Positions 5,192-21,426 of a DNA stretch of 64,000 bases are shown here, piece after piece. The translations under genes and the position numbers were made by a program. This DNA comes from Thermodesulfobacteriota bacterium. GTDB lineage: Bacteria; Desulfobacterota; Desulfobacteria; Desulfobacterales; SURF-7. The notes beneath the pieces were generated by a model. That model was given only the letters and a program-made list of their open reading frames with translations, had not been told where the DNA came from and made no database searches. Location: the NCBI GenBank assembly GCA_049320885.1, contig JBMORA010000031.1, positions 58,245 to 122,244 on the forward strand. The letters run 5' to 3'. Positions within the stretch are counted from its first letter, which is position 1, and each line of letters opens with the position of its first letter.

Positions 5192-5845
5192 ATGCCAACA
5201 ATTGTAATATATGGTGCCGGTGGATTCGCCAGAGAGGTCGCCTGGCTCATTCCCTCATCCAATATGAAACAATATGAAATCGCATGTTTTATTTCCGATA
5301 CCCCGGAAGAACAGGGTTTGGTGATCAACGGGATTGCCGTAATGAGCCTTGAAGAGACCCGAAAAAGATATCCATCCGCATCAGCCATTGCCGCCATTGG
5401 GAATCCCGCTGGCCGGGAAATCATCAGCAACAGGGCAAAAGAAAACGGGTTCTGCTTCGCAACCATTATACACCAAGAAACCCTGAAGTCCGAATGGATT
5501 AAGATCGGCGAGGGAACTGTAATTTGCGCTGGGAATATTTTAACGACAAATATTGAAATCGGGCGGCACGCCCAGATCAATCTGGGGTGTACCATTGGTC
5601 ATGATGTTATTATCGGTGATTATTCGACCCTCTCTCCAGGGGTGCATGTCTCCGGTAGAGTTCATATCGGAAACCGTGTGTATATCGGTACGGGTGCTGT
5701 CATTATCGCAGGGACCTCTGAACGTCCCATCGTGATTGAGGATGATGTCGTCATCGGCGCTGGTGCCTGCGTAACCAGATCACTTGCTGGCAAGCAAACC
5801 TATGTCGGTGTTCCGGCAAAATCCATCCGAACAGCGCACCTATAA
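5192..5845 (+). CDS. Sugar acetyltransferase, NeuD/PglD family (hexapeptide repeat)
   Basis: IYGAGGFAREV N-terminus, AIGNP..R, hexapeptide repeats with IGHD, GAGACV, YVGVPAK. Confidence 0.9.
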   Translation: MPTIVIYGAGGFAREVAWLIPSSNMKQYEIACFISDTPEEQGLVINGIAVMSLEETRKRYPSASAIAAIGNPAGREIISNRAKENGFCFATIIHQETLKSEWIKIGEGTVICAGNILTTNIEIGRHAQINLGCTIGHDVIIGDYSTLSPGVHVSGRVHIGNRVYIGTGAVIIAGTSERPIVIEDDVVIGAGACVTRSLAGKQTYVGVPAKSIRTAHL

Positions 5846-7081
5846 ATGACAACCAGAAACCGGCAAACTTCCGATCCTAATTATCCACCAAGCGATCTAT
5901 CCTGGTTGGGCAGGTTGCGAGGGGCAGCCATCATCATGATAGTCGCCTGGCATGTGAATCAATTGCCCTTCAGCGGATTGTTTCTTCATAAATATACCAG
6001 ATTTCTGCTGCCGTTTTTAGATCAGCCCGGATTTCAGGACCTGTTTACAACCACCTCCAGCGTGCAATTCTTTTTTCTGCCCATCGCCACATTTTGTAAT
6101 CTCGGATACCAAGGCGTGCATCTTTTTTTCGTTTTAAGCGGATTCGGCTTGGTTTTGTCCTGGAACGCCTCCTTGAGGAAACAGAAAATCGACCGGTTTT
6201 TCCTGTTCTCATGGATGCGCAGACGATTTATGCGGATTTCTCTTCCGCTGTGGTTTTCCTTGGTCATCGTACTTGTTTTTTTACTACTTTTCGGCCCTAG
6301 AAAAATATATTATGTTACCAACCTTCCGGATAGTCCGGTTGTCTGGCTGAGGTTATCCTTGCTCACGGCGTTGGGCCTAAATGGACTATTCCCAGGAACT
6401 ATATATAGTATCAATCCTCCCCTCTGGTTTATTGCGCCGCTTTTCCAGTTTTATCTCATTTTCCCAATCCTGGTCGTTCTTTTAGATCGATACGGACCCG
6501 GAAAATTTATGATTTTTTCCATCATTATCACTATTGTATCTCGCTTTATTTTTATATTTTATTTACAAAAATCCATCGGATGGCCTTTTGCTTTAGGCTC
6601 GTTCATCGGGTGCCGGCTGGCGGAGTTCGGTTTCGGCATGTCGATGGCGACATGGTATCCAGAACAACATCGGAAATGGATACCTAACCTGAAAAATACT
6701 CTCCTTACCCTGTCAGGTTATGCAATGGGTCTGGTTCTGGCAACGACTCTCTGGGGAGCCTTGTTTTCCGAAATGTTCATCGGCGTGTTTCTGTTCGTAC
6801 TCCTGTATTTTTTCTTTAATCGATTTAATTGGCTATCGATGGAACGGATCGGCAAATATTCATTGGGTATTTTTCTAATTCATTATCCCTTGATGTATCC
6901 ATTACAAAAATTATTTGGTTTGGTTTTACCGAATTATATCTTGTATGGTCAGCTGATAAATTTTATTTTGGTTATGATAACATTGTTTTATTTCGGGATC
7001 GCTTTTGAATGGTCCTTATCCCGACTGATGCCGTTCCTGCAGCCCACAAAATGCAACCATGGAGAAGGGAATGTATCTTGA
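5846..7081 (+). CDS. Acyltransferase family 3 (OafA-like membrane O-acyltransferase)
   Basis: LRGAAIIMIVAWH, GVHLFFVLSGF, RRRFMRI, LWFI...QFYLIFP, SLGIFLIH; multiple TM segments. Confidence 0.9.
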   Translation: MTTRNRQTSDPNYPPSDLSWLGRLRGAAIIMIVAWHVNQLPFSGLFLHKYTRFLLPFLDQPGFQDLFTTTSSVQFFFLPIATFCNLGYQGVHLFFVLSGFGLVLSWNASLRKQKIDRFFLFSWMRRRFMRISLPLWFSLVIVLVFLLLFGPRKIYYVTNLPDSPVVWLRLSLLTALGLNGLFPGTIYSINPPLWFIAPLFQFYLIFPILVVLLDRYGPGKFMIFSIIITIVSRFIFIFYLQKSIGWPFALGSFIGCRLAEFGFGMSMATWYPEQHRKWIPNLKNTLLTLSGYAMGLVLATTLWGALFSEMFIGVFLFVLLYFFFNRFNWLSMERIGKYSLGIFLIHYPLMYPLQKLFGLVLPNYILYGQLINFILVMITLFYFGIAFEWSLSRLMPFLQPTKCNHGEGNVS

Positions 7082-7183
7082 ATGAAATTCGACAATGATC
7101 TTTATTAAAATAAGATTTTTGTATATGCATCCATTGTGGATGCGGCTCCAGCCATCTGCATTTTTATAGCATAAGGATGAATC

Positions 7184-8398
7184 GTGATGATGGAAATCGA
7201 TGTTTCTGTAAAATCTGCGCCGAATGATTTCGCCATCTTGGGCGGAACTCCCGTTTTTCCGGAAAAACTCCATGTGGGAAGACCGAACATTTTAAACAAA
7301 GCCGCCCTATTGACCCGTATCAACCAGATGTTGGAACGATGCTGGCTGACCAATAACGGTCCCCTGGTTCAGGAGTTTGAACAAAAAATTACCGATATAA
7401 CCGGTGTAAAGCACTGCATCGCCATGTGCAATGGAACCATCGCCCTGGAAATCGTCATTCGCGCCCTCGGAATGACGGGCGAAGTCATCGTTCCCTCGGC
7501 AACGTTCATCGCTACGGCCCACTCCCTTCAATGGCAGGGTGTCACTCCGATATTCAGCGACATCGATATCCATACCCACAATCTGGACACCGCCAAAATT
7601 GAACGGATGATCACACCCCGGACAACGGGTATCATCGGTGTTCATCTATGGGGTCGGCCGTGCGATATCGAGGCCCTGACCGATGTGGCCAACCGACACG
7701 GGTTGAAACTGATCTTCGATGCGGCCCATGCCTTTGGATGCACATACAAAGGGAAAATGATCGGAAATTTCGGTAATGCCGAAGTCTATAGCTTTCACGC
7801 CACCAAATTCATCAACACTTTTGAAGGCGGCGCCGTGGTAACCAACGACGACCATCTGGCTCAAAAAATCCGGTTGATGAAAAACTTCGGTTTCGCCGGT
7901 TACGACAACGTCATTTATATCGGCACCAACGGTAAAATGAGCGAGATATCGGCCGCCATGGGTCTGACATCCGTTGAGAGTATGGACGAAATCATCAGCG
8001 CCAACAGGACCAACTACCATCTGTATCAACACCTGCTGGAGGCGATTCCCGGAATTTCCCTGATCAGCTATAATAAAAAAGAACGGATGAATTATCAGTA
8101 TATCATCATTGAAGTTGACGAGAAGGCCGCCGGCATAGCCCGTAACCGGATTGTGGAGATCCTCCACGCGGAAAACATTATCGCCAGGCGCTATTTTTTC
8201 CCCGGTTGCCATAAAATGGAACCGTATCGATCCTACTTTCCCCATGCCGGATTGTTGCTGCCGGAAACGGAGAAACTGCTGGATCGCGTCATCTCGCTAC
8301 CCACCGGCACAGCCATCACGGAAGAACATATCCGGAAGATATGCGCCACCTTGAGCGCCATCATCCACCACAGTGGTTCCCTGCGGGAAAGGGCTTGA
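7184..8398 (+). CDS. DegT/DnrJ/EryC1/StrS PLP aminotransferase (VioA/DesI-like NDP-4-keto-6-deoxysugar transaminase)
   Basis: LHVGRPN, NNGPLVQEFE, NGTIAL, DAAHAFG, SFHATK (PLP Lys), EGG, NGKMSE, RRYF, SLPTG. Confidence 0.92.
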   Translation: MMMEIDVSVKSAPNDFAILGGTPVFPEKLHVGRPNILNKAALLTRINQMLERCWLTNNGPLVQEFEQKITDITGVKHCIAMCNGTIALEIVIRALGMTGEVIVPSATFIATAHSLQWQGVTPIFSDIDIHTHNLDTAKIERMITPRTTGIIGVHLWGRPCDIEALTDVANRHGLKLIFDAAHAFGCTYKGKMIGNFGNAEVYSFHATKFINTFEGGAVVTNDDHLAQKIRLMKNFGFAGYDNVIYIGTNGKMSEISAAMGLTSVESMDEIISANRTNYHLYQHLLEAIPGISLISYNKKERMNYQYIIIEVDEKAAGIARNRIVEILHAENIIARRYFFPGCHKMEPYRSYFPHAGLLLPETEKLLDRVISLPTGTAITEEHIRKICATLSAIIHHSGSLRERA

Positions 8399-8402
8399 TG
8401 TC

Positions 8403-9347
8403 ATGAGCGAATATACCGTTGACTACTCCATTATTATACCGGTTTACTATAACGAAGGCAGTCTTGCAAAAACATTTGATATACTGAAAAAGGAAGTTAT
8501 TGGCAGGAATCCGGATTTAACGGCCGAGATCATTTTCATCGATGACGGCTCCGGAGACAATTCCTTCCAGGAAATGACCGAATTGAAAAATGCCGCCCCA
8601 CAACTGGTGAGGCTGATTAAATTTACCCGTAATTTTGGACAACTTCAGGCCATCATGGCTGGATTCAAACTAGCCAGGGGAAAATGCGTGATCAACATAT
8701 CGGCGGATCTTCAAGATCCTCCAGAACTGATCAATGAAATGATTTATTATCATTTCCAGGAACACCGCGAGATTGTCATCTGCACCCGTGAAGCACGGGA
8801 TGAATCTTTTTTCCGGCGGGTGACGTCGCAGCTTTTCTATTCCATCATGAAACGCCTGAGCTTTCCGAACATGCCGCAAAAAGGCTTCGATTTCGTACTG
8901 CTCAGCGACAAGGTGAAGCAAGTCATCCTGAACAGCCGGGAATCCAACGCATTTTTTCAGGGACAGATCCTTTGGACCGGATATTCCATACACTTTATCC
9001 CCTATGTCAGAAGACGCAGGGAAATCGGTAAATCCCGTTGGACGTTCGGGAAAAAAATCAAATACCTGATCGACGGGGTGATGAGTTATTCCTATTTTCC
9101 GATCCGGATGATGTCGGTCATCGGCGCCATCACGGCTTTGATCGGCTTCGGATATGCGTTTGTTATTTTCACGGCCTGGCTATTCGCCGGCGGGTCGGTG
9201 AAAGGCTGGGCTCCTCTGATGATCGCCATCCTCGTCCTGAGCGGCGTGCAAATGCTGATGATCGGTATTGTAGGGGAATACCTGTGGAGAACCCTGGACC
9301 AGGTGCGGGAGCGGCAACCGTACATCATTGACCGGATTATCGAATGA
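8403..9347 (+). CDS. GT2 polyprenol-phosphate glycosyltransferase (GtrB/ArnC-like)
   Basis: IIIPVYYNE, DDGSGD, RNFG, ADLQDPP, two C-terminal TM helices, GIVGEYLWR...R.PY. Confidence 0.92.
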   Translation: MSEYTVDYSIIIPVYYNEGSLAKTFDILKKEVIGRNPDLTAEIIFIDDGSGDNSFQEMTELKNAAPQLVRLIKFTRNFGQLQAIMAGFKLARGKCVINISADLQDPPELINEMIYYHFQEHREIVICTREARDESFFRRVTSQLFYSIMKRLSFPNMPQKGFDFVLLSDKVKQVILNSRESNAFFQGQILWTGYSIHFIPYVRRRREIGKSRWTFGKKIKYLIDGVMSYSYFPIRMMSVIGAITALIGFGYAFVIFTAWLFAGGSVKGWAPLMIAILVLSGVQMLMIGIVGEYLWRTLDQVRERQPYIIDRIIE

Positions 9348-9775
9348 GGATGGATTTGAATAAAAAATTGAAATTTCGCACCGGGGTGATCCAGTTTGAA
9401 AAATATGTGGCGGTGGGCATCCTGAACCTGTTTTTCACCCTGGCCGTCTATTTTGTTTTTCTCAAACTGCTCCACTCCCATTACCTGGTAGCCTATTCGG
9501 TATCATGGCTCGCCGGGGTTTTATTCACCTATGTCATCAATTTCGTCTGGGTGTTCAAACCGGAAAAGCAATTGGAATTCCGCTCCCGGTTGCCCAAATA
9601 TTTCATCGTCTACATTTCTTCATTTCTGATCAATTTCTTTTCCCTGAAACTGTTGACGGAATTCACAGGATGGGATCCGCTGATCGTTCAGATGTTTATC
9701 CTGCCCATTATCGTTTTTATCAACTTTTTTGGGATGAAATGGTGGTCGCTGAGACATCGTGAGGTTCCGGATTAA
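9344..9775 (+). CDS. GtrA family lipid-linked sugar flippase
   Basis: 143 aa, four TM helices, KY..VG..N and NFVWVF motifs; follows GtrB-like gene with ATGA overlap. Confidence 0.88.
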   Translation: MRMDLNKKLKFRTGVIQFEKYVAVGILNLFFTLAVYFVFLKLLHSHYLVAYSVSWLAGVLFTYVINFVWVFKPEKQLEFRSRLPKYFIVYISSFLINFFSLKLLTEFTGWDPLIVQMFILPIIVFINFFGMKWWSLRHREVPD

Positions 9776-11621
9776 ACCAGGGATCGACATATCCAAAGAA
9801 ACCCGGGAAAACGGCAGCAACTCCCTCTGGCAGGCCTTCGCCGCCACCGCCGTTTTGTTTCTGCTGATCTTGATTTTTTTTCCGGTTCGATATGAAACCA
9901 ACGACGATTTCGCCCTGGTATATGAATTATCTGGGCCTTCCGCAACGCCGGTGAGTTTTGTTCTCAATCCGATCACCAGTCATTTTCTTTTTTACGCCTA
10001 CCGGCTTTTCCCGGGAATCCCCTGGTACGGAACCTGGTTGTACGGTAGTATCTTTTTGGCAATATTTCTGATTATTTCAATTCTTATTCGGATCAGTCAT
10101 CGTTTGGTGCTTCTTTGGATCGGGCCCTTTTTTCTGATTCTTTTGTTTCGGACCATCGCCTTTCCCGGTATCACATCGGCAACCCTGCTGCTGTTGTTCG
10201 CCGTCTTTCTAAACATTCTGGATTGGGGCTTGACTGGGAGATGCCCATTTCCTCGAAAACGGATGCATCAGGCCCTCCTGATGATTGGATTATTCATGGG
10301 ATTCCTGTTGCGGTGGGAATTGGCGACTTACGCTCTTGTATTCCTCGTCCCGGTGCTCATCTGCTGTAAGCCCTCGCGGCAACTCTATTGCCGTTCCGTT
10401 CTTTCCGGAGTCCTTCTCATTCTGTTGCTGTATCCGGTCTTTTTGACTTATCTGAATTCCGGAAACAGACAGCCCTATAATGAATACAGTAAACTGAGGA
10501 AGATCTTTCACGATACGGAAAAAGGATATTACTACGAAGATATCACGCCGGCGGCCCTCGGTAAGGCAGGCTGGTCTTACAATGACTTCGTATTGTTCCG
10601 GAATTGGTGGTTCTTATATGACCACCTTCATTTCAATAAGGAAAAACTGACCGCGTTTTTACAGGAAAACACGCCTCTCCAGAAGAAACCGTTCCTCCGG
10701 CACGCTATAGAAAGGGTAACGGAAGCCTTTGGAAACAGCAAACAGCCAACCATTTTGTTCCTGTTGTCGGCAATGCTGCTTTTTCTATTTCGGATATTGT
10801 ATCCGCCGGGTGCAATGAAACAGGACTTTCTGAAACGGTCAATATCGATTTCCATGACGACGGCCGGTGTTTTATTTTTTGCGTATTACCGCTTTGAACC
10901 CCGCATTTATTTCCCCCTGTATGCCTATTTGCTCGGCATGATGGCGATCCTGCTGTATCATGACTGCCCCGGGATGCCAGCGCGTATATCGGTCTTTCAC
11001 AAAATGATATGGTGCGCCGTCATACCGTTTTCCATTGGAACTATTGGCTTGGTCTACATCATCGGCGACATCCAGTTGCAGGATCTATCCGCGTCTTACA
11101 GGAACAAACAATTTATCCGCCATCAGTTCGAAAAAGTTGATCCAAACCTGATCAACAAGGATAGTGCTCTCTTAATCGTATTGAACCCCCTGGATAATAT
11201 AATGATTGAGACCATCCACCCCCTTAAGGAAAAAAAGGATTATCCCGATTTTACAATATTGCCCTTCGGCTGGCAGATTAACTCACCTCAATATGTCCGT
11301 CTGCTGGAGGAGTTCGGCGTTTTCGACAAGGATTCCTTTTTACGCTGGACCTTGGACAACCGGAATGTTTTCTGGTTTCAGCTTTTCCGGGATTCGATAG
11401 ACGACCATCGGATCAGCCTGATAGAGAAGTATATCGGACGGTATGCCGCTAATGGGAAACCATGTGTTTTCCAGCCTGTTGTTGATTGCAGAAACCAGGA
11501 TGGAATCGGTTTTGTTTTTTTTAACCTGGTGTGCAACAATATAAAGCAAAGTCTTTTAAATTACATGGACACCGGGATAGAAGCGGTGCTTCCATGTGAG
11601 GACAACAGGTATGATCGCTGA
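9759..11621 (+). CDS. Polytopic membrane protein, putative GT-C (GtrC-like) transferase
   Basis: Many TM segments, acidic loop YETNDD after first TM, soluble C-terminal domain; directly after gtrB-gtrA. Confidence 0.6.
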   Translation: MRFRIKPGIDISKETRENGSNSLWQAFAATAVLFLLILIFFPVRYETNDDFALVYELSGPSATPVSFVLNPITSHFLFYAYRLFPGIPWYGTWLYGSIFLAIFLIISILIRISHRLVLLWIGPFFLILLFRTIAFPGITSATLLLLFAVFLNILDWGLTGRCPFPRKRMHQALLMIGLFMGFLLRWELATYALVFLVPVLICCKPSRQLYCRSVLSGVLLILLLYPVFLTYLNSGNRQPYNEYSKLRKIFHDTEKGYYYEDITPAALGKAGWSYNDFVLFRNWWFLYDHLHFNKEKLTAFLQENTPLQKKPFLRHAIERVTEAFGNSKQPTILFLLSAMLLFLFRILYPPGAMKQDFLKRSISISMTTAGVLFFAYYRFEPRIYFPLYAYLLGMMAILLYHDCPGMPARISVFHKMIWCAVIPFSIGTIGLVYIIGDIQLQDLSASYRNKQFIRHQFEKVDPNLINKDSALLIVLNPLDNIMIETIHPLKEKKDYPDFTILPFGWQINSPQYVRLLEEFGVFDKDSFLRWTLDNRNVFWFQLFRDSIDDHRISLIEKYIGRYAANGKPCVFQPVVDCRNQDGIGFVFFNLVCNNIKQSLLNYMDTGIEAVLPCEDNRYDR

Positions 11622-13269
11622 TAATCTCTCTTCAACTAGCGGGCGGGCCAGAAAAAGCCGAATTTTGCTGCCATCGGTTCTTTTGGTTTTTTTGACCCTG
11701 ATGGTTTACTGGCAAGTGAAGGATTTCGAATTTATCAATTATGATGATCCCACCTTCACGACTCAAAATTACCTTGTACAAAAGGGATTCACCGTAAAAG
11801 GCATCCGGGAGATCTTCTCCAACCCCGATTATTTTTGCATGCAGCTGAGTTTTTTGTCCCATATGCTGGATTGCCAGCTGTTCGGCCTGCAAGCCGGTTA
11901 CCATCACCTTACCAACCTTTTCTGGCATATCGCGAGCGCCGTTCTGTTGTTTTTATTCCTCCGCCACATGACGGGTGCCATGTGGAAAAGCCTTGCCGTG
12001 GCCATGCTGTTCGCCATCCACCCGGTCCATGTTGAATCCGTGGCCTGGATTGCTGAACGGCGGAATGTCCTGAGTACTTTTTTTTGGTTCGCGGCTCTGC
12101 TGGCCTACTGGCGTTACGCCCGTCAACCCGGGTTTCTTTCCTATCTGGCAGTGACGGTTCTGTTTACTTTGGGTTTGACTGCCAAGTCGATGCTGGTGAC
12201 ACTTCCTTTTCAACTTCTCTTGCTGGACTTCTGGCCCCTGGAAAGAATACATTTCAAATCGCAAAATTCAAATGTTAAATCTTTCCTCTCATGGGTTATG
12301 ATAGAGAAAATCCCCCTGTTCGCCATCTCGGCTCTCGCATGTTACCTTACCCTAATTTCCGCACGAAATCAGGGAGGGGTTAAAGGAATCGGCGGGCTGG
12401 TATCCTTTGAAGCCATTCCACTTTTTTCGCGCATGGCAAACGCTGCCATTGCCTATATCAACTACATGATTCATTTGGTTTTTCCTTTTGATCTGTCGGT
12501 TTATTATCCTTACCCGAATTCAATCCCTCTTTGGCAGGTTACCGGCGCATCTCTGCTGCTGATTTCCATGCTGATCGTTATCTTACGGTATGCTGTTCGT
12601 CTGCCCTGGTTGGTGACTGGCTGGTTCTGGTTCATGGGGACTCTGGTGCCTGTAATCGGTCTGGTTCAGCTCGGAGGCCAGGCCATGGCCGACAGATATA
12701 TTTACGTACCGAGTATAGGAATTTTTATCATCCTGGTCTGGGGAACAGCGACGATTTTCACGAAAACCGGTATCCGGCGGAAAACCACCGCATTATTGGC
12801 GGTCTTTTTTTTCACTATCTTGGCATCCAATACCTGGATGCAGCTGCAATATTGGAAAAACAGTCTGACACTATTCGAACGCACGGTGCGCATAACGCCG
12901 GACTACCCCGTGGCATACAACAACCTCGGAATGGCCCTGGCCAACGCCGGCCGACTGGAAGAGGCAAGCGACAATATCCAAAAAGCCATACAACTGATGC
13001 CGGTATTTGCGGAAGCATACAACAATTTAGGCAACATTCTCAGCACCCAAGGGAATATCGATGAGGCTGTCGAGAATTATCGCAAAGCCCTGGCGCTGAA
13101 CCCGGACTACTCCGAAGCGCATAATAACTTGGGAATCGCCTACTATACGAAACAGTTGACGGAAGAAGCCATATTCCATTTTCAACAGGCATTGCGTCTG
13201 TCGCCGGATTATCCGGATGCGCGCCACAATTTGGAAATCGTACTTAAAAAACGCTTAACCGGGAAATAA
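11611..13269 (+). CDS. TMTC-like GT-C membrane glycosyltransferase with C-terminal TPRs (paralog 1)
   Basis: NYDDP, HPVHVESVAWIAERRNVLS, LLLDFWPL, MADRY.Y.P, followed by TPRs (YNNLG). Confidence 0.85.
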   Translation: MIADNLSSTSGRARKSRILLPSVLLVFLTLMVYWQVKDFEFINYDDPTFTTQNYLVQKGFTVKGIREIFSNPDYFCMQLSFLSHMLDCQLFGLQAGYHHLTNLFWHIASAVLLFLFLRHMTGAMWKSLAVAMLFAIHPVHVESVAWIAERRNVLSTFFWFAALLAYWRYARQPGFLSYLAVTVLFTLGLTAKSMLVTLPFQLLLLDFWPLERIHFKSQNSNVKSFLSWVMIEKIPLFAISALACYLTLISARNQGGVKGIGGLVSFEAIPLFSRMANAAIAYINYMIHLVFPFDLSVYYPYPNSIPLWQVTGASLLLISMLIVILRYAVRLPWLVTGWFWFMGTLVPVIGLVQLGGQAMADRYIYVPSIGIFIILVWGTATIFTKTGIRRKTTALLAVFFFTILASNTWMQLQYWKNSLTLFERTVRITPDYPVAYNNLGMALANAGRLEEASDNIQKAIQLMPVFAEAYNNLGNILSTQGNIDEAVENYRKALALNPDYSEAHNNLGIAYYTKQLTEEAIFHFQQALRLSPDYPDARHNLEIVLKKRLTGK

Positions 13270-13282
13270 CCGTCTATACTCC

Positions 13283-15055
13283 ATGAATCAAATCTTTCGC
13301 GATTCCAATTCCCTCATTCGAAGACCCGGAACCTGGATATATGCCCTGCTGGTTTTACTTACCCTGATGCCCTACTGGCCGGTGACCGATAATCAATTTA
13401 TCAATTTCGATGACAATCAGTATGTTTATGAGAATGATCAGGTTATCAACGGCCTGAGCTTTCAGAACGTGATCTGGGCCTTTTCATCCACGGTGGCGGC
13501 AAACTGGCATCCGATGACTATGCTTTCCCACATGCTGGATGTTCATCTGTATGGACTAAATCCCGGCGGGCATCATTTCACCAGCTTGTTGCTTCATATT
13601 CTGAATACGCTACTCCTGTATCTTCTGTTGAATCGGCTCTCCAGCGAGCCATGGCCATCCCTGTTTGTCGCCATTCTTTTCGCCGTTCATCCTCTCCATG
13701 TGGAGTCCGTTGCCTGGGTCGCCGAACGTAAAGACGTCCTAAGCACTTTTTTCTGGTTTCTGACTGTCCTGAGTTATCTCCGCTTTTTGGAACATAAGAC
13801 CTTCATAAACTATCTGATGGCTCTAACCTTTTTCTCCCTGGGCCTGATGGCCAAACCCATGTTGGTCACCCTACCTTTTTCATTGCTGCTGATGGATTTT
13901 TGGCCGCTGGGGAGAATCGGACGTAAAACGAAAAGCGTCGCCCTCCAGGCAGACACAAAGACAGCAACGGAAAAAAACTGGAATTCGGGATTTCCCGTTT
14001 ATATCATATTGGAAAAAATACCATTTTTGATCATTGTGGCGGTTTTCTGCGTCATCGTTTTCAAAGTCCAGCAGATCGAAGGCGCGGTCGCTCCGCGGGA
14101 TATCATCCCGCTAGAATCCAGGCTGCTGAACGCGCTGATATCCTATTGCCGCTATCTGGTCAAAACGGCCTGGCCGTTTCAACTTTCCGTTTTTTATCCA
14201 TTTCCCCAGGTCATTTCCTTATGGCTACCGGTGTCTGCGGGGTTCGCATTGTTTTGTTTCTCTCTCTTTGCGCTGTTTCAATCCAGCAAAAGGCCTTGGT
14301 TGTTTTTCGGCTGGTTCTGGTACGTTGGAACACTGGTGCCGGTTATCGGCATCATCCAGGTCGGGGCTCAGTCCATGGCGGATCGGTACACGTACATTCC
14401 CTTGATTGGAATTTTTATCGCCATGGCATGGGAAATAGCTGAATGGGTGAAAAAACATCAGTTCCGAAAGAAGTTCTTGTTACCGACCGGCTCGATTCTG
14501 GTCGCCGCATTTTCCATCCTCACCTGGGTTCAGGTCCATCACTGGCGTGACAGCATCACGCTGTATGAACATGTTCTGAGAATCAACGATGACAATAGTG
14601 TGATCCAAAACACCATGGGGCTGGCCAAACTGGATCGCAACCGAGTCCAGGAGGCCATTCAGCATTTTTCGAAAGCCATCTGGTTGAAACCGGACAATGG
14701 AAAGCCGTATAACAATCTCGGCATCGCCCTTGTCCAGAACAATCAGCTTGCTCTGGCCGAGCAGGCCTTCCGGAATGCAATCGAATTAATGCCCGGCTTT
14801 GCCGATGCCCATGTCAATATGGGGATTGTAAAATTGCGACAAGGGGATACTCGTAACGCCATAGCTCATTTTTCCCAGGCGCTTGCACTGAACCCTATCC
14901 ATGCAAAAGCACATTTCAGCATGGCGCTGGCCTATGAAAAAGAAAATCGTGTTGACAGGGCGATCTCCCACTATGAGACCGCCATAAAGACGGAACCGAA
15001 ACTTGCCGCAATGGCATTGAATCGAATCCGTCAGTTGCGTAAATTCGGTGAATAA
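13283..15055 (+). CDS. TMTC-like GT-C membrane glycosyltransferase with C-terminal TPRs (paralog 2)
   Basis: NFDDN, NWHPMT, HPLHVESVAWVAERKDVLS, KPMLVTLP, MADRYTYIP, TPRs. Confidence 0.85.
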   Translation: MNQIFRDSNSLIRRPGTWIYALLVLLTLMPYWPVTDNQFINFDDNQYVYENDQVINGLSFQNVIWAFSSTVAANWHPMTMLSHMLDVHLYGLNPGGHHFTSLLLHILNTLLLYLLLNRLSSEPWPSLFVAILFAVHPLHVESVAWVAERKDVLSTFFWFLTVLSYLRFLEHKTFINYLMALTFFSLGLMAKPMLVTLPFSLLLMDFWPLGRIGRKTKSVALQADTKTATEKNWNSGFPVYIILEKIPFLIIVAVFCVIVFKVQQIEGAVAPRDIIPLESRLLNALISYCRYLVKTAWPFQLSVFYPFPQVISLWLPVSAGFALFCFSLFALFQSSKRPWLFFGWFWYVGTLVPVIGIIQVGAQSMADRYTYIPLIGIFIAMAWEIAEWVKKHQFRKKFLLPTGSILVAAFSILTWVQVHHWRDSITLYEHVLRINDDNSVIQNTMGLAKLDRNRVQEAIQHFSKAIWLKPDNGKPYNNLGIALVQNNQLALAEQAFRNAIELMPGFADAHVNMGIVKLRQGDTRNAIAHFSQALALNPIHAKAHFSMALAYEKENRVDRAISHYETAIKTEPKLAAMALNRIRQLRKFGE

Positions 15056-15261: not shown

Positions 15262-16326
15262 ATGAAAAAGTCTTACGCCGGTCTGCTTGTCATGATAGTT
15301 CTTCCCCTGATGATGAGCTGCGCAAAAGATCCGAAAATTGAATGGAACGAACTGAACAATCAGGTGGCAAGTCTTTATCAGGCCGGCAAATACGATGAGG
15401 CCATCCAGATCGGGAAAAAAGCCATCGAAGTTGCGGAGAAAGCATTTGATCCCGCGCATCCCAATGTGGCCAAAACCCTGTACAATGTTGCCGGATGCTA
15501 TTACATTCAAAACAAATTGGACGAAGCGGAACCGCTTTTTGCAAGGGCTCTGAGAATAAAAATCAAAGCCTTCGGCCCCATGCATCCGGAAGTAGCCGAC
15601 CTGCTCAATCTCCTGGGGAACATCTATTCCCTGCAGGATAAAAACCATCAGGCGGAAGCCGTTTACCGGGATGCTTTATCCATCAGCCTCCAGGTATACG
15701 GTAACAAAGACCCCAAGGTAGCCACCATATTCAGCAACCTGGCGGCTGTTTATTTTTCCCAGGGCAAATTTGCAAAAGCGGACAAATATTACAATACCGC
15801 GCTTCAAATCACGCCCGGAGAACAAAATCTGTTGAAAAACAAAGCCGAGCTGGACAAAACCAGACCCCAGATCGACACCATTCTTCAGCAGCAAATTGAA
15901 AAAGTTCAACAAAAACCTGACGATCCTTACCTGCAGTGGAAATTGGGCAACCTGCACTCGGAAAAAAATGACTTGGACAAGGCCATCGAGCACTATAAAA
16001 AAGCAGTTTCCATAAAACAGGATTATGTGGAAGCGATGCTGGATCTGGCTGACATTTACGAATATCAGAAAAATTTTGAACCGGCGCTTGAAATGGTGCA
16101 GAACGCCTTGAAGCTGCAACCGGAGAGAAATGACCTTATGTATCAGTGCGCCGCATTGTTTGCCCAGAAAGCGGATACCAAATCAGCTGTTGAATGGCTG
16201 GGGAAAGCAGTTCAAAAAGGCTATCGGAATCTATCACGGATAAAAACCGACAATCGACTGGCGAGCATCCGGGAGACCGAAGAATACAAAAAAATTATCA
16301 CCCCTCCGGCAGCTAAGCAGGAATGA
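15262..16326 (+). CDS. TPR lipoprotein
   Basis: AGGAGG RBS, signal peptide with lipobox LMMSC, kinesin-light-chain-type TPRs (HPNVAKTLYN, HPEVADLLN), terminal TPR cap. Confidence 0.85.
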   Translation: MKKSYAGLLVMIVLPLMMSCAKDPKIEWNELNNQVASLYQAGKYDEAIQIGKKAIEVAEKAFDPAHPNVAKTLYNVAGCYYIQNKLDEAEPLFARALRIKIKAFGPMHPEVADLLNLLGNIYSLQDKNHQAEAVYRDALSISLQVYGNKDPKVATIFSNLAAVYFSQGKFAKADKYYNTALQITPGEQNLLKNKAELDKTRPQIDTILQQQIEKVQQKPDDPYLQWKLGNLHSEKNDLDKAIEHYKKAVSIKQDYVEAMLDLADIYEYQKNFEPALEMVQNALKLQPERNDLMYQCAALFAQKADTKSAVEWLGKAVQKGYRNLSRIKTDNRLASIRETEEYKKIITPPAAKQE

Positions 16327-16530
16327 GAATGGGAATTCCAGGGATGGTTTTCGGCAGTCAAAGCGCTGCAATCGAACCGTGATATGCATTCGGCTGGAAA
16401 CCATCCCGGCTTTCGAGTATGAGAATATCGGACCCGGATTTTACTTTTTTATCCCGGGACGAATGAAACATATCAACCGAAGCAAAACGCTTTCCGATTC
16501 AACCAGACAAGGACAATCATTCGAAGAACA

Positions 16531-18588
16531 GTGAATATCGTCAAACACCAAACGACAGGATTGATCTGTGTCGCCCTTTTGATAGTTACCATTGCTGCAT
16601 ATGCCCAAGTGATGGGATTCGATTTCGTCGGTTTTGACGATCCGGCCTTCACCACCGAAAATCCCCTCATTCAAAAAGGCATAAGCCGGGAAGGGATCAG
16701 AGAGGTTTTCCGCAATCCGGACTACTTCTGCATGCAGTTGTCGGTATTATCCCATATGCTGGACTGCGAGCTGTTCGGGCTCGATCCCGGCAGGCACCAT
16801 TTTGTCAACCTGATTTTTCATCTTCTCAATGTGTTGCTGTTGTTTATTTTAATGAAACGCCTTGGCGGAGATATTCTGCCAAGCGCTGCTGTTGCGGCCC
16901 TGTTTGCCGTCCACCCGCTGAATGTGGAATCCGTGGCATGGATCGCCGAACGACGGAATGTGCTCAGCACTTTTTTCTGGTTCGCCGCCACACTTGCCTA
17001 TATCCGTTATACCGAACGACGCAGCCTGACATCCTATATCCTCATGACCGTTTTTTTTGTTTTCGGTCTCATGTCCAAAGCCATGCTGGTGACCCTGCCC
17101 TTTACATTATTGCTGCTGGATTTCTGGCCGTTAGAAAGGATCCAGCTAAACGGGGCGAGCTCAAAGCCGGAAGCAAAAATCTCAAATCTCAAATCTCAAA
17201 TCTCAAATTCCTATGGAATCGCCGTTTTAGAAAAGCTTCCGCTGATGATTATCTCGGTTGCGGCCAGTTACCTGACGTTGATCGCCGCACAAAACACCGG
17301 CGGCGCACCCGGGATTGGAGGTCTCATGTCGGCGGAGGAACTGCCCATCGGTTTCCGATTCGCCAATGCGATGGTTTCCTATTCAGCCTATCTCGTCAAA
17401 ACCGTCTGGCCCTTCGATTTGTCCTTGAACTATCCCCTGAATAAAAACCTGTCGTTATGGCAGATTCTGCCGGCCGCGGCTTTTCTGGTAGCGGTCACCG
17501 GGATCTCCTTTTGGACCATTCGCACCAGACCATGGCTTGCGGTGGGCTGGCTCTGGTATCTCGGCACCCTCACCCCGGTGATTGGCATTATTCAGCTTGG
17601 CCATCAGGCCATGGCGGATCGGTATGTTTATGTGCCGCTCATCGGAATTTTCATAATGGTCTCATGGACGGTCGCCGACTGGAATCGAATGCGTCCATTC
17701 CGGGGGAAAACCGTAATGGTTTGGGCCATGCTGCTGATCGCTCTCATGACGGTCAACACCATCCTCCAAAACCGATATTGGCGGAATACGGTGACCTTGT
17801 TCGAACATGTCATCCATATTTCCCCAACGTATACACTGGCCTATTATAATCTCGGGGTTGCCCTTCGGAAAATGGGGCGATCGGCGGAGGCCTTTCATTA
17901 TTTTTCAAAAGCAACCGCCATGGCGCCCGATTTTGCAGAAGCCAATTTTTTCATGGCCCTCTTTTTCACTGAATCGAATCAGCCCGACAAAGCCATCGCT
18001 TATTATCATAAAGCGCTTTCCCGAAAACCGGAACTTACCGAAGCCCGGTTCAATCTGGCTCGTCTTTTTACAAAACTCAGCCAATGGGAAGAAGCGGAGA
18101 ATCAGTACCGGAAAATTCTGACGACCAAACCCAACGACCCGGATACCCTGCATGCCCTGGGCAATCTGTTCGAGCGGCAAAATCAACCAGAAATAGCCGC
18201 ACAATATTACCGGAAAGCCATTCAAGGAAAGCCCGATTCCGCCATGTTCCATCAAAGTCTGGGCGCGTCCTTTGAAAAAATGGGAAATTTCGCGGAAGCT
18301 TCCCGGCAATACACCGAGGCCATCCGGATCGATCCGGGCAATACCAATTTATATAACCAGATGGCCATTCTGATGTTCAAACAAGGCAAGATGGAGGAGG
18401 CGTTCCGTTATTTTCACCGTGCCCTCACCATCAACCCGAAGGATGCGAACACTTATTATAACATGGCGGTTTCTTATTCCAAACTCAACCGTATTGAAGA
18501 GGCGATCCAACATTATACCAAAGTGATCGAAATCGACGAATCGTTTGCCGACGCCAGGAAAAAACGGGATATGCTGTTGAACAATTAA
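16531..18588 (+). CDS. TMTC-like GT-C membrane glycosyltransferase with extended TPR array (paralog 3)
   Basis: GFDDP, HPLNVESVAWIAERRNVLS, MADRYVYVP, about 7 TPRs. Confidence 0.85.
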   Translation: MNIVKHQTTGLICVALLIVTIAAYAQVMGFDFVGFDDPAFTTENPLIQKGISREGIREVFRNPDYFCMQLSVLSHMLDCELFGLDPGRHHFVNLIFHLLNVLLLFILMKRLGGDILPSAAVAALFAVHPLNVESVAWIAERRNVLSTFFWFAATLAYIRYTERRSLTSYILMTVFFVFGLMSKAMLVTLPFTLLLLDFWPLERIQLNGASSKPEAKISNLKSQISNSYGIAVLEKLPLMIISVAASYLTLIAAQNTGGAPGIGGLMSAEELPIGFRFANAMVSYSAYLVKTVWPFDLSLNYPLNKNLSLWQILPAAAFLVAVTGISFWTIRTRPWLAVGWLWYLGTLTPVIGIIQLGHQAMADRYVYVPLIGIFIMVSWTVADWNRMRPFRGKTVMVWAMLLIALMTVNTILQNRYWRNTVTLFEHVIHISPTYTLAYYNLGVALRKMGRSAEAFHYFSKATAMAPDFAEANFFMALFFTESNQPDKAIAYYHKALSRKPELTEARFNLARLFTKLSQWEEAENQYRKILTTKPNDPDTLHALGNLFERQNQPEIAAQYYRKAIQGKPDSAMFHQSLGASFEKMGNFAEASRQYTEAIRIDPGNTNLYNQMAILMFKQGKMEEAFRYFHRALTINPKDANTYYNMAVSYSKLNRIEEAIQHYTKVIEIDESFADARKKRDMLLNN
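17177..17210 (+). repeat. Heptamer tandem repeat (AAATCTC)x4 inside TMTC paralog 3
   Basis: aaatctc aaatctc aaatctc aaatctc aaattc read directly. Confidence 0.9.
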
Positions 18589-18676
18589 AATCAGTTTGCA
18601 AATTTGGGATGGAAACAGTGTATACAGGCGGCAGATGGTTTACGGCTCCGCCACCCTCTGAAAGGACTGATCGCGA

Positions 18677-19462
18677 ATGTATAAAAACCAGAAAGTAGTC
18701 GTCGTCATGCCGGCATATAACGCTGAATTGACCCTGGGTCGAACATATGATGAGGTAATGGCCCAGGAGATTGTCGACCTGGTGATTATCGTTGATGACA
18801 ACAGCCGGGACAGAACAGTGGAAATCGCCCGGCAACTCCCCAACGCCATCGTTCATCAACATCCGGTAAACACGGGATACGGCGGAAATCAAAAAACCTG
18901 TTATCGATTAGCTCTGGAACAAAGCGGCGACATCATCATCATGGTTCACCCCGATTATCAATATACACCCAAATTGATTCCCGCCATGGCGTCCATGATA
19001 GGCAACGGTCTGTATCACTGTGTTCTCGGTTCCAGAATTTTAGGCGGCTATGCCCTTAAAGGCGGGATGCCTATATGGAAATACGTTTCCAACCGTTTCC
19101 TGACACTTGTCGGAAATCTGCTGCTGGGCGCCAAGCTTTCGGAATACCACACCGGGTATCGGGCTTTTTCCCGAAGCCTTCTCGAGAATCTGCCATTGGA
19201 GAAAAATTCGGACGATTTTGTTTTCGACAACCAGATGTTGGCGCAAATCGTCTGGCAGGGATACATGATCGCAGAAATCAGTTGTCCAACGAAATATTTC
19301 CCGGAAGCCTCTTCCATCAATCTGATCAGAAGCATTCAATACGGTTTCGGTTGTCTCAGCACAGCCATCTCATTCCGTCTCGCCAAATCGAGCCTTGCCC
19401 ATTCGGGACTGTTCCCGCAAGCACTTTCTGGCCGCTATCCGACCATGGACAAAACGATGTGA
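18677..19462 (+). CDS. GT2 glycosyltransferase, Dpm1/polyprenol-phosphate-sugar synthase-like
   Basis: VVVMPAYNAE, VDDNSRD, GYGGNQKT, HPDYQY, GSR, HTGYRAF; no TM tail. Confidence 0.88.
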   Translation: MYKNQKVVVVMPAYNAELTLGRTYDEVMAQEIVDLVIIVDDNSRDRTVEIARQLPNAIVHQHPVNTGYGGNQKTCYRLALEQSGDIIIMVHPDYQYTPKLIPAMASMIGNGLYHCVLGSRILGGYALKGGMPIWKYVSNRFLTLVGNLLLGAKLSEYHTGYRAFSRSLLENLPLEKNSDDFVFDNQMLAQIVWQGYMIAEISCPTKYFPEASSINLIRSIQYGFGCLSTAISFRLAKSSLAHSGLFPQALSGRYPTMDKTM

Positions 19463-19488
19463 CCTGTTATGCAAAACAGCTGCTTCTG

Positions 19489-21426
19489 ATGAAATCCCAG
19501 CCGCATCGCTCCCTATTCATTATAATGTGTCTCATGGCTGCCGCTTTTGCGGTGTACCAGCCGGTCCGCAACCATCCCTTTATCGAACTGGACGACAATA
19601 TCTATGTCACCGCGAATTACCATGTCCGATCCGGCATCACCTGGGAAGGCATCAAAGAGGCTTTCCGTTTTACCGGAACCGGGGAACAGGTGTATTATCA
19701 TCCCTTAACCATGCTGTCCCACATGCTGGATGTCGAATTGTTCGGTTTGAACCCCTCCTCCCATCATCTGGTAAATGTAGCCTTCCATGCACTCAATGCG
19801 ATACTGCTTTTCTTGTTCCTGCATTTTTCCACCGGATCGACATATCGAAGCGGTATGGCGGCGATGTTGTTCACCCTGCATCCGATGAATGTTGAGTCCG
19901 TCGCCTGGATAGCGGAACGGAAAAACCTGCTTAGTTCCATGTTCTGGTTGCTTGCCTGCCTTGCCTACGCCCGGTATTCCCGCAAACGGGACGTGTTTTC
20001 CTATGCCGCCACGCTGGTGACAATGTTTCTTGGCCTACTATCCAAGCCCATGCTGGTGACCCTGCCGTTCGTCTTTCTGCTTCTGGATTTCTGGCCGCTT
20101 GGAAGGATCAGGTTGAAAAATGGCAGCCCGCAGGCACCGGTCTTTGTTCTATTGCTGGTTGAAAAAATCCCATTTTTCTCTTTGTCGGCCGTATGGGTGT
20201 GGATTGCCTCTCTTTCCGCCAAGCAGGCGGGGTTATTGATTTCAACCCATGCGGCGCCCATGCCTGTGCGCCTGCAGAACGCCATTCACTCCTATTGGAG
20301 TTATCTAAGCAAACTCATCTTCCCGCAGGATATGGCTGTTTTTTATCCATTCCCAGCTGAAACCGGACCGCTGGGGCAAACAGCCGTTTTCGTATTTTTC
20401 CTGCTGATCGTTACTTTCCTTGCAATTCGGTTGCGTTTATCCTCCCCCTATTTTTTTTCAGGATGGAGCTGGTTCTGCGGAACCCTGGTGCCGGTATTGG
20501 GCCTCAAGCAGCAGGGACTGTGGCCTGCCATGGCGGACCGCTGGACATATATTCCTGGTATCGGCATTTTCATCGTCCTGGTGTGGGGAGGGCACCAATT
20601 GGCCTATAGCAACATTCTGAGGCGATATCTGCTGGTCTTTTCTTCGGTCATAATCGTTCTGCTGGCAATTCTAACCCGGATGCAGCTGGGATATTGGCAA
20701 AACGATATCCGCCTTGCGGAGCATTGCCTTGCAGCAACGGAACGAAACCATGTCGCCCATCACCTCCTTGGCCTGGCATTGATAAAAAACGGACAAAAAG
20801 AGGAAGGAATCCGGCATGTCCATGAATCCGTTCGGCTGGGACCCGGTTACAATACCCCGCATATAACCCTGGGAGGTATTCTGGCGGAAACCGGATACTT
20901 GAAAAGCGCCATGGAACAGCTTTCCATTGCCCTGACCATCAACCCCAACGTCGCCATTGCCTGGAACAATCTCGGAATTGTTTATAAAAAAATGGGCGAG
21001 TTGGAGAAAGCGCTGGCGGCTTTTTCCAAGGCACTGCAATTGGATCCGTATTCCACTGATGTCTGCAACAATCTGGCGAATACATTGAAATTGAAAAACC
21101 GCTTCAGCGAAGCGGTCCAGTATTATCAAAAAGCGCTTCAGATCAACAACAACATACCAGAAATCCACAACAATATCGCCAATACCTACCTGGCGATGGA
21201 ACAGCCGGAAAAAGCCATTCAACATTACAAGAAAGCGATTCAACTTTCCCCTCGTCAACCGATCTTTTATCTCAACCTTGGCGAAATCTTGCGGAGTAAC
21301 GGAAAAAAGGAGGAGGCGATCGCCAATTACAACCAAGCCCTGCGGCTCATTCCTGACGACCCTGAGATCATCGGCCGTCTGAAGGAATTGCATGTTTCTG
21401 AGATTCCATCGAACCCGGAAAATTGA
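19489..21426 (+). CDS. TMTC-like GT-C membrane glycosyltransferase with TPR array (paralog 4)
   Basis: ELDDN, YYHPLT, HPMNVESVAWIAERKNLLS, MADRWTYIP, TPRs; start ATG 19489 or GTG 19459. Confidence 0.85.
   Translation: MKSQPHRSLFIIMCLMAAAFAVYQPVRNHPFIELDDNIYVTANYHVRSGITWEGIKEAFRFTGTGEQVYYHPLTMLSHMLDVELFGLNPSSHHLVNVAFHALNAILLFLFLHFSTGSTYRSGMAAMLFTLHPMNVESVAWIAERKNLLSSMFWLLACLAYARYSRKRDVFSYAATLVTMFLGLLSKPMLVTLPFVFLLLDFWPLGRIRLKNGSPQAPVFVLLLVEKIPFFSLSAVWVWIASLSAKQAGLLISTHAAPMPVRLQNAIHSYWSYLSKLIFPQDMAVFYPFPAETGPLGQTAVFVFFLLIVTFLAIRLRLSSPYFFSGWSWFCGTLVPVLGLKQQGLWPAMADRWTYIPGIGIFIVLVWGGHQLAYSNILRRYLLVFSSVIIVLLAILTRMQLGYWQNDIRLAEHCLAATERNHVAHHLLGLALIKNGQKEEGIRHVHESVRLGPGYNTPHITLGGILAETGYLKSAMEQLSIALTINPNVAIAWNNLGIVYKKMGELEKALAAFSKALQLDPYSTDVCNNLANTLKLKNRFSEAVQYYQKALQINNNIPEIHNNIANTYLAMEQPEKAIQHYKKAIQLSPRQPIFYLNLGEILRSNGKKEEAIANYNQALRLIPDDPEIIGRLKELHVSEIPSNPEN

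What the first reader, a model, noticed from the sequence alone, without database searches (positions are those of the whole stretch)
5192..21426. Self-contained candidate bacterial protein O-glycosylation system with four TMTC-like transferases and two lipid-donor synthases
Seen: four paralogs with a GT-C-type membrane domain (DD acidic pair after TM1, HP..VESVAW..ER, ADRY.Y.P) fused to TPR arrays. They are co-oriented with a Dpm1-like GT2, a GtrB-like GT2, a GtrA flippase, a fifth GT-C-like protein, an amino-sugar transaminase and two acyltransferases. Established: eukaryotic TMTC1-4 have this GT-C+TPR architecture and O-mannosylate cadherin domains from Dol-P-Man made by Dpm1; GtrAB make and flip Und-P-sugar. 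Inference: the locus supplies donor synthesis, flipping and several TPR-targeted transferases for periplasmic or surface protein glycosylation. I know of no biochemical characterisation of such a bacterial pathway. No wzx/wzy/ABC exporter or PglB/PglL is present in the block.
Basis: partly seen in the sequence, partly recalled or inferred. Interest (0 to 1): 0.85.

Follow-up and report, generated by a model that had tools for sequence, protein, structure and literature searches.

The report
Two-module membrane sugar-transferase gene block
This gene block joins four membrane sugar-transferases with protein-binding tails, which likely attach a lipid-carried sugar to exported proteins encoded elsewhere, to a separate cassette that likely adds an amino sugar to a surface glycan; it is an untested variant of a design already known from the Pseudomonas pilin glycosylase TfpW.

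Summary
The genes are there, plus an overlooked TPR lipoprotein. One of the four paralogues was modelled: 11 membrane helices, GT-C fold (Z 19 to Pmt2, AglB, STT3), TPR tail.

(1) A characterised bacterial precedent exists: TfpW (GT-C + TPR, GtrA-like partner, pilin acceptor). (2) The block is not self-contained: no obvious acceptor gene, and rmlA/rmlB lie on another contig. (3) It looks like two modules. The Dpm1-like GT2 travels with the TPR transferases (13 of 29 orthologue loci, against 0 of 29 GtrB-like controls). The amino-sugar/GtrB/GtrA genes have their own GT-C, whose family occurs without TPR transferases in 14 of 14 outside loci.

The four belong to a very large bacterial subfamily that, by positional mapping, lacks TMTC's two proposed metal ligands and PF08409: TMTC relatives, not shown members. 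The core order is conserved in two congeners; here it sits at a tRNA-Leu integration site. Sugar and acceptor are unknown; Fil-type fibre subunits and PilA are candidates. The scan has noted such arrays repeatedly on other DNA. Verdict: real, common, untested; a new variant of a known kind.

The parts
5192..5845 (+). NeuD/PglB/VioB-family sugar N-acetyltransferase; variable gene, not found at this position in the two congeners
   Evidence: TIGR03570 193.5 bits, cut-off 160.8; congeners carry a different hexapeptide acyltransferase upstream of the aminotransferase; no DNA match in them
5846..7081 (+). Acyltransferase-3 membrane O-acyltransferase; variable gene
   Evidence: PF01757 E 2.8e-33; absent from this position in G001 and G002
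7184..8398 (+). DesI/VioA-like C4 aminotransferase; predicted to make dTDP-4-amino-4,6-dideoxyglucose
   Evidence: PF01041; TIGR04427 529 bits, under its cut-off of 650; best PDB match 2po3, E 4.5e-127, next best 1.6e-61
8373..9347 (+). GtrB/ArnC-like polyprenol-phosphate glycosyltransferase (likely start ATG 8403)
   Evidence: Best PDB match sll0501 GtrB E 7e-58, ArnC 1.5e-36
9344..9775 (+). GtrA-like putative flippase
   Evidence: PF04138 E 3.9e-22
9759..11621 (+). ORF7: GT-C-fold membrane protein without TPR, of an unnamed family; likely the cognate transferase of the GtrB/GtrA cassette
   Evidence: No Pfam or NCBIfam family; model pLDDT 76.8; 19 of the top 20 structural rows are GT-C-type, best DPY19 Z 11.8, rmsd 6.3, 440 aligned; DD pair invariant in 10 aligned relatives
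11596..13269 (+). T1: KP-subfamily GT-C + TPR, 557 aa; variant first-loop motif shared with T3
13283..15055 (+). T2: canonical KP-subfamily GT-C + TPR, 590 aa; the modelled paralogue
   Evidence: PF13231 E 1.8e-9; model pLDDT 90.1; Z 19.3 to Pmt2, 19.1 AglB, 19.0 STT3B, 18.6 ArnT
15262..16326 (+).
   Evidence: TPR families, NF047558 over cut-off; 72% and 62% identical orthologues between T2 and T3; Ser+Thr only 6.5%
16531..18588 (+). T3: KP-subfamily GT-C + TPR, 685 aa, longest TPR array
   Evidence: PF13231 E 2.3e-7, 7 TPR_1 stretches
18677..19462 (+). Dpm1-like soluble GT2; likely polyprenol-phosphate sugar synthase for the TPR transferases; sugar unknown
   Evidence: PF00535; best PDB match archaeal DPM synthase E 4e-11; all NCBIfam hits under cut-off; orthologues adjacent to KP-type genes in 13 of 29 loci
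19489..21426 (+). T4: KP-subfamily GT-C + TPR, about 645 aa
   Evidence: PF13231 E 1.3e-4, under cut-off
21489..21577 (-). tRNA-Leu(TAA) whose 3' end faces the block; a site with different cargo in each congener

Best explanation
The block holds two glycosylation modules: four GT-C/TPR membrane enzymes that likely transfer a single sugar from an undecaprenyl-phosphate donor, likely made by the neighbouring Dpm1-like GT2, to Ser/Thr residues of exported proteins encoded elsewhere, and a GtrB/GtrA/GT-C cassette that likely adds a 4-acetamido-4,6-dideoxyhexose to a surface glycan. Shown: gene content, GT-C fold of the T2 and ORF7 models, conserved order in two congeners, recurrent pairing of the Dpm1-like gene with KP-type enzymes, occurrence of the ORF7 family without them. 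Inferred, module B: the GT2 loads a hexose or HexNAc on Und-P; the donor is flipped (by the GtrA or a housekeeping flippase); each paralogue binds a folded acceptor through its periplasmic TPR array and transfers the sugar at the DD-containing site. Candidate acceptors are the Ser/Thr-rich Fil-type (DUF6160) subunits and PilA, which neighbour paralogues elsewhere in this genome. Inferred, module A: RmlA/RmlB (contig C30) supply the 4-keto sugar, the aminotransferase and acetyltransferase convert it, GtrB loads it, GtrA flips it, ORF7 transfers it, and the Acyl_transf_3 protein may O-acylate the product.
For: Fold and topology: 11 membrane helices then TPRs; Lys/Arg bias puts the DD loop and TPR tail on the outer side in all four (3-5 against 11-13); GT-C matches Z 17-20. 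Precedent: TfpW has the same architecture and O-glycosylates pilin; TMTCs O-mannosylate proteins. Catalytic-type residues are near-invariant in 154 KP-type sequences (D43 153, D44 150, R149 153, K191 152, R368 153). Donor pairing: 13 of 29 best Dpm1-like orthologue loci, from 11 families, have a KP-type gene within 1.5 kb; 0 of 29 GtrB-like control loci do. 5 of 72 KP-type loci from other lineages carry a 65-77% identical Dpm1-like gene. Module A alone: 0 of 14 outside ORF7-family loci had a KP- or KE-type gene in the DNA fetched; a GtrB-like gene was near in 4 of 6 genomes and a DegT enzyme in 5 of 6. GtrA + GtrB + GT-C is the classical three-component glycan-modifying cassette (PMC11127046). 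Each paralogue has a one-to-one orthologue in both congeners, which fits distinct maintained roles.
Against: No activity, donor, acceptor or expression was measured. The fold does not separate protein from lipid acceptors: ArnT (lipid A) scores Z 18.6, within 1 of Pmt2. No pilin, Fil or other Ser/Thr-rich acceptor gene lies in the block, and KP-type genes are mostly not beside one: 1 of 72 loci was flanked by confirmed pilins and 0 of 72 had a FilA-like hit. By positional mapping the KP subfamily lacks the two acidic metal ligands proposed for TMTC. Against strict independence of the modules: ORF7 and T1 overlap, the joined order is kept in both congeners, and the two non-congener genomes with close aminotransferase orthologues (of 150 searched) both have a KP-type gene within about 3 kb. 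16 of 29 Dpm1-like loci lack a KP-type neighbour; two flanking genes tested there hit another GT-C family. The GtrB controls are only 32-39% identical, and kin are not independent.
Confidence: 0.45

Rival explanations
1. One integrated pathway on the same glycoproteins: TPR enzymes initiate on Ser/Thr with the Dpm1-made sugar, and ORF7 (or the variant T1/T3) extends or caps it with the acetamido sugar, so that an O-glycan is built stepwise in the periplasm from monosaccharide lipid donors.
For: The aminotransferase-to-T4 order is conserved in both congeners although the flanks differ; ORF7 overlaps T1; close aminotransferase orthologues in G092 and G149 sit beside KP-type genes; T1 and T3 share a variant of the first-loop motif, seen in only 7 of 179 sequences, all in this genus; one ORF7-family locus (G350) lies upstream of a pilA.
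Against: The ORF7 family occurs without TPR transferases in 14 of 14 outside loci; GtrA and ORF7 were hit in 0 of 72 KP-type loci; the KP-type genes of G092 and G149 have the ordinary motif, so the variant does not track the amino sugar.
Confidence: 0.2
2. T1-T4 decorate non-protein envelope polymers (O-antigen, lipid A, EPS) as ArnT or Gtr enzymes do; the TPR arrays scaffold export or modification complexes.
For: ArnT ties with the protein transferases structurally; in congener G002 the core lies about 8 kb upstream of a wzm/wzt polysaccharide locus among MBOAT and acyltransferase genes; no acceptor protein gene in the block.
Against: The characterised enzymes I could find with this GT-C + TPR architecture (TfpW, TMTC) act on proteins; most KP-type genes lie among housekeeping genes, not polysaccharide loci; only 10 of 72 loci had a polyprenol-phosphate sugar synthase hit within the DNA held.
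Confidence: 0.25
3. Some or all KP-type paralogues are not transferases but GT-C-fold scaffolds or lipid-sugar-binding assembly factors.
For: Loss of the M4 glutamate and M5 aspartate; a paralogue on contig C57 has DT in place of DD; genomes keep up to 18 matches.
Against: DD, the phosphate-binding Lys and both Arg residues are near-invariant, and two subfamily-specific glutamates (E141 145 of 154, E148 147 of 154) could replace the lost ligands; persistent pairing with a donor synthase.
Confidence: 0.1

Closest known systems
TfpW of Pseudomonas aeruginosa group IV strains (Pa5196, PA7), pilin D-arabinofuranosyltransferase (bioRxiv 10.1101/2020.04.19.049825; passages and part 2 of 4 of the text read)
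   Same: About 650 aa, cytoplasmic N-terminus, 11 predicted membrane helices, DDx in periplasmic loop 1, Tyr/Pro motif in loop 4, periplasmic TPR tail, lipid-linked sugar donor, GtrA-like partner.
   Different: tfpW lies directly after pilA, as a single gene, and uses D-Araf made by DprE-like enzymes. Here there are four paralogues, no pilin in the block, a Dpm1-like GT2, and a loop-4 spacing one residue shorter. Direct sequence comparison was not possible.
Animal TMTC1-4 (CAZy GT105), ER protein O-mannosyltransferases (PMC7801869, passages and part 1 of section 9; PMC6801728, passages)
   Same: 11-helix GT-C domain plus TPR tail, DD, conserved Lys in loop 3, (E/D)RxxY; a eukaryotic DUF1736 cluster is among T2's feature neighbours (score 0.92, 191 shared features).
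   Different: No PF08409 match; KE becomes KP/KS/KA, DW becomes (F/Y/N)Y, SHKSYRP becomes WHP/YHP/CMQ. Other bacterial subtypes keep these motifs better (L084, L107). Donor and acceptor unknown.
Three-component periplasmic glycosylation systems (GtrA/GtrB/Gtr*, ArnC/ArnEF/ArnT; PMC11127046, passages)
   Same: GtrB-like synthase, GtrA and a GT-C in a row, preceded by genes for an amino sugar.
   Different: The GT-C (ORF7) belongs to an unnamed family, the predicted sugar is a 4-acetamido-4,6-dideoxyhexose, and the cassette is joined to a GT-C/TPR array.

Membership tests
TMTC / GT105 | GT-C fold | tested here: met
   T2 model Z 19.3 (rmsd 5.2, 354 aligned) to Pmt2; 19.1 AglB; 18.6 ArnT. Only T2 was modelled; T1, T3, T4 by 41-44% identity.
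TMTC / GT105 | 11 membrane helices, N-in, TPR tail outside | tested here: met
   Helix count from the model; Lys/Arg bias. Predicted, not measured.
TMTC / GT105 | M1 DD in the first outer loop | tested here: met
   4 of 4. Its distance to the other motifs in 3D could not be measured.
TMTC / GT105 | M2 SHKSYRP (proposed mannose contact) | tested here: not met
   WHP (T2), YHP (T4), CMQ (T1, T3) at the matching position. Mapped by position through bacterial KE-type proteins and the paper's table, not by alignment to a human sequence.
TMTC / GT105 | M3 RxD | tested here: inconclusive
   RKD in T2; RxN in T1, T3, T4.
TMTC / GT105 | M4 KE(T/Q) and M5 DW, the proposed metal ligands | tested here: not met
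   Lys kept, next residue P/S/A; M5 position (F/Y/N)Y in all four; P follows K in 127 of 154 KP-type sequences, whereas 15 of 16 KE-type keep KE. Positional mapping as above.
TMTC / GT105 | M7 ERxxY | tested here: inconclusive
   DRxxY in all four, a conservative change.
TMTC / GT105 | PF08409 (DUF1736) | tested here: not met
   No hit in the four or over cut-off in the genome; 1 of 48 aligned relatives hits weakly, a non-KP member (E 0.008).
TMTC / GT105 | Polyprenol-P-mannose donor, cadherin-type acceptor, CAZy GT105 assignment | not testable with these tools
   No dbCAN or assay. The genome has a ManC over cut-off on contig C50, which permits but does not show mannose.
TfpW | 11-helix GT-C with DDx in loop 1 and periplasmic TPR tail | tested here: met
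TfpW | YX6PFX7P in periplasmic loop 4 | tested here: not met
   YX6PFX6P in T1-T3, YX6PQX6P in T4: a near miss by one residue.
TfpW | Gene directly downstream of pilA | tested here: not met
   No pilin in the block. A KE-type paralogue on contig C64 does follow pilA.
TfpW | Sequence orthology to TfpW; D-Araf donor pathway | not testable with these tools
   No tool returned a TfpW sequence. No dprE-like gene in the block; the genome was not searched for one.
Three-component Gtr/Arn system (module A) | Polyprenol-phosphate glycosyltransferase, flippase and GT-C together | tested here: met
Three-component Gtr/Arn system (module A) | Acceptor is a lipid-linked glycan or lipid A | not testable with these tools
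   Needs glycan analysis.
DesI/VioA aminotransferase | TIGR04427 equivalog cut-off | tested here: not met
   529 of 650 bits, but far ahead of the next family (242 bits).

The most novel reading that the evidence does not exclude
A bacterial pathway that builds protein O-glycans stepwise in the periplasm from two different lipid-monophosphate monosaccharide donors: several TPR-targeted transferases of a subfamily with a rewired metal site initiate on distinct folded acceptors (Fil-type fibre subunits, pilins, adhesins), and a fifth GT-C caps the sugar with an acetamido-dideoxyhexose, with no preassembled lipid-linked oligosaccharide and no PglB/PglL.
Probability: 0.2. Interest if true: 0.8.

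Novelty: new variant of a known kind. Interest (0 to 1): 0.45.

Why it matters
The membrane domain alone matches 47,490 clusters at 50% identity (E up to 1e-10), across many phyla, yet my ten literature searches found no assay of this subfamily. If these enzymes glycosylate exported proteins, a very common bacterial protein-modification route is being overlooked, and it would be a simpler model for how TPR domains choose folded acceptors in TMTC enzymes. This locus is one of many examples and names no acceptor, so it is not the best test case. Its useful additions are the conserved Dpm1-like donor partner, the KP/KE subfamily split, and the separation into two modules.

Tried and rejected
Sequence and profile searches of the PDB with the membrane domain found nothing. 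Foldseek on the whole T2 model listed only TPR proteins among the rows shown; the GT-C matches came from VIA-align. No TMTC or TfpW chain was listed there, which is inconclusive. NCBIfam has no model for the membrane domains. No match for KP- or KE-type domains in the plasmid collection. No RNA holder listed. Laying DNA contigs gave full cover only from a run that may be the source; it served only to point to the tRNA. The promoter scan was at chance level (25 found, 23 expected). No second copy of the tRNA 3' end in the window and no integrase in the block, so a self-mobile element is rejected. Recent tandem duplication is rejected: the four are not one clade and each has orthologues in both congeners (FastTree, 179 sequences, 407 columns). 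A link between the T1/T3 motif variant and the amino sugar was not supported. The first GtrB control was too strict and returned only this genome; it was repeated at E 1e-40. No STT3/PglB match in the genome, which is 98% complete; four Wzy_C/O-antigen-ligase-family genes exist elsewhere and were not examined. Literature searches with no paper. Searches that listed papers without a bacterial assay of this subfamily in the listing; one search found TfpW. Complex prediction was not used, as an enzyme-acceptor pair is a poor case for it. Supplements of the TfpW preprint and Additional Files of PMC7801869 were not seen and may hold alignments that bear on the motif mapping.


Full report
1. What is there. 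From the aminotransferase to T2 the genes abut or overlap; gaps of about 200 bp flank the lipoprotein. The block is 47-49% GC against 55.8% for the genome and ends 62 bases from the 3' end of tRNA-Leu(TAA). Named relatives of T2 are Desulfobacterales and other Deltaproteobacteria, so the host is probably of that group (inference).

2. The four paralogues are GT-C enzymes with TPR tails. A T2 model from 106 sequences has mean pLDDT 90.1 and shows 11 membrane helices followed by TPR hairpins. Against 48,161 PDB representatives its membrane part matches Pmt2 (Z 19.3, rmsd 5.2, 354 aligned), AglB (19.1), STT3B (19.0), ArnT (18.6), Pmt4 (18.4), ALG12 (17.5) and PglB (16.9). These scores do not tell a protein acceptor from a lipid one. 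Lys/Arg counts put the DD loop and the TPR tail on the outer side in all four. Three of four hit PMT_2, two over the cut-off. ORF7 is also GT-C-like: 19 of the top 20 rows are GT-C-type, though at Z 12 or less with a pLDDT 77 model.

3. TMTC relatives, not shown members. A eukaryotic DUF1736 cluster is among T2's feature neighbours (0.92), and Eisenhaber et al. already note homologues 'even among prokaryotes' (PMC7801869). Against that paper's motifs, an alignment of 170 membrane domains (of 181 hits; 11 dropped for length) splits into two groups. The KE group (16) keeps RP, KE and mostly an acidic residue at M5; it includes this genome's pilA-adjacent gene. The KP group (154) includes all four window genes: DD, the M3 Arg, the M4 Lys and DRxxY are near-invariant, but the proposed metal ligands (M4 Glu, M5 Asp) are replaced, and two other glutamates are conserved instead. 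PF08409 is not hit. Two non-KP proteins (L084, L107) resemble the TMTC motifs most closely, and one hits PF08409 weakly. This mapping is positional; no human sequence was aligned.

4. A characterised precedent exists. TfpW is a 646-aa protein with a cytoplasmic N-terminus, 11 predicted helices, DDx in loop 1 and a periplasmic TPR domain. It puts D-Araf on Ser/Thr of pilin, needs a GtrA-like protein in E. coli, and has been reconstituted (bioRxiv 10.1101/2020.04.19.049825; passages and part 2 of 4 read). The window genes differ in lacking an adjacent pilA and in a one-residue offset of the loop-4 motif.

5. The family is very common. The membrane domain matches 80,219 clusters at E up to 0.001 and 47,490 at 1e-10. 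26 of 31 related genomes (this one included) have a match, up to 18 each. This genome has eight KP-type and three complete KE-type genes plus two contig-end fragments. Among 72 loci from the species collection (3 of 64 parts scanned), 24 have two or more copies, 10 a polyprenol-phosphate sugar synthase hit, 2 a DegT hit, none a GtrA, ORF7 or FilA-like hit. Four had a pilin-pattern hit; only L058 was confirmed as pilin-flanked. In the Pfam scan of 128 of 147 picked neighbours, most were housekeeping genes. Arrays of four are thus ordinary.

6. Two modules. Module B: of the 29 best orthologue loci of the Dpm1-like gene among 300 genomes of the phylum (47 had a match), 13, from 11 families, have a KP-type gene within 1.5 kb; 0 of 29 GtrB-like control loci do (Fisher p 4e-5, overstated because kin are not independent and the controls are distant). 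Five of the 72 loci, titled Gemmatimonadaceae, Saccharibacteria, Vicinamibacterales, Sedimentisphaerales and Chlorobiaceae, carry a 65-77% identical Dpm1-like gene. One locus reads KP-type, Dpm1-like, pilin-pattern, pilin-pattern (L145). Module A: ORF7-family genes in 6 of 250 other genomes and 8 metagenome loci (several near-identical) had no KP- or KE-type neighbour in the DNA fetched; in the six genomes a GtrB-like gene was near in four and a DegT enzyme in five. This is the three-component pattern of glycan side-chain addition (PMC11127046, passages). Against full independence: the joined order is kept in both congeners, and the two other genomes with close aminotransferase orthologues (G092, G149; 150 searched) have a KP-type gene within about 3 kb.

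7. Not self-contained. The aminotransferase is DesI/VioA-like (the reading of PDB 2po3 as DesI and of the product as viosamine is recalled) and needs RmlA and RmlB, which are on contig C30. No obvious acceptor gene lies in the block; the lipoprotein has only 6.5% Ser+Thr. PilA and the four FilA-like proteins have 15-18%, above the genome's 95th percentile of 14.3%, and neighbour other paralogues on C64 and C57. In G001 and G002 the aminotransferase-to-T4 core keeps its order with one-to-one orthologues, but follows a second ORF7 paralogue and a different acyltransferase. In G002 it lies inside a surface-glycan region of more than 100 kb that also holds wzm/wzt and the Fil cluster. In this genome the second ORF7 paralogue is on C12 without the core, and the core sits at tRNA-Leu, where the congeners carry unrelated cargo. 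The block is therefore a relocated or re-acquired piece of a larger system, with exchangeable acyltransferase genes (inference).

8. Mechanism. Most likely (0.45): T1-T4 transfer one sugar from an Und-P donor made by the Dpm1-like GT2 to Ser/Thr of exported proteins chosen by their TPR arrays, while GtrB/GtrA/ORF7 add a 4-acetamido-4,6-dideoxyhexose to another surface glycan. Rivals: one stepwise pathway on the same glycoproteins (0.2), non-protein acceptors (0.25), non-catalytic scaffolds (0.1). Protein glycosylation in some form thus stands at about 0.65. Nothing here identifies the hexose; mannose is possible (ManC present) but the proposed mannose-contact motif is not kept.

9. Novelty. 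Ten searches of the paper library listed no assay of the KP subfamily; the library lacks most subscription journals. The scan has reported similar arrays on other genomes many times; these notes were leads, and the TfpW comparison was checked in the paper. Verdict: a real, common and untested variant of a known kind; interest 0.45.

Noticed in passing
L001:10469-19301 and L002:3284-14844 (G000 contig C57): A second array of four GT-C/TPR genes lies upstream of a cluster of FilA-like DUF6160 genes, a 2,192-aa Ig-domain protein and a C39 peptidase; the same pairing is seen in G001, G002 and G022. One of the four has DT instead of DD.
   Followed up: partly
L004:7782-11837 (G000 contig C64): pilR, pilA, then a KE-type GT-C/TPR gene and a VKOR-DsbA fusion: a closer TfpW-like arrangement than the window's block, conserved in both congeners and in three genomes of another genus.
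   Followed up: partly
L104:2025-14523 (G000 contig C12): A second ORF7 paralogue divergent from a second GtrB-like gene, methyltransferase-GT2 fusions and an MBOAT; in the congeners this is where the window's core block sits.
   Followed up: partly
window 25579-27885 (-): PilB/GspE-like ATPase with an N-terminal GAF domain.
   Followed up: no
window 2692-4713 (-): B12-binding radical SAM protein with DUF4070, divergent from the block; unlinked to it in the congeners.
   Followed up: no
window 63365-63440 (+): tRNA-Thr(CGT) near the contig end.
   Followed up: no
L107:10732-12789 and L084:6308-8452: Bacterial GT-C/TPR proteins whose motifs match the published TMTC motifs better than either main subfamily; better candidates for true TMTC orthologues.
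   Followed up: partly
L049, L056, L070, L072, L075: In five Acidobacteriota loci the KP-type gene is convergent with a DUF2911 gene.
   Followed up: no
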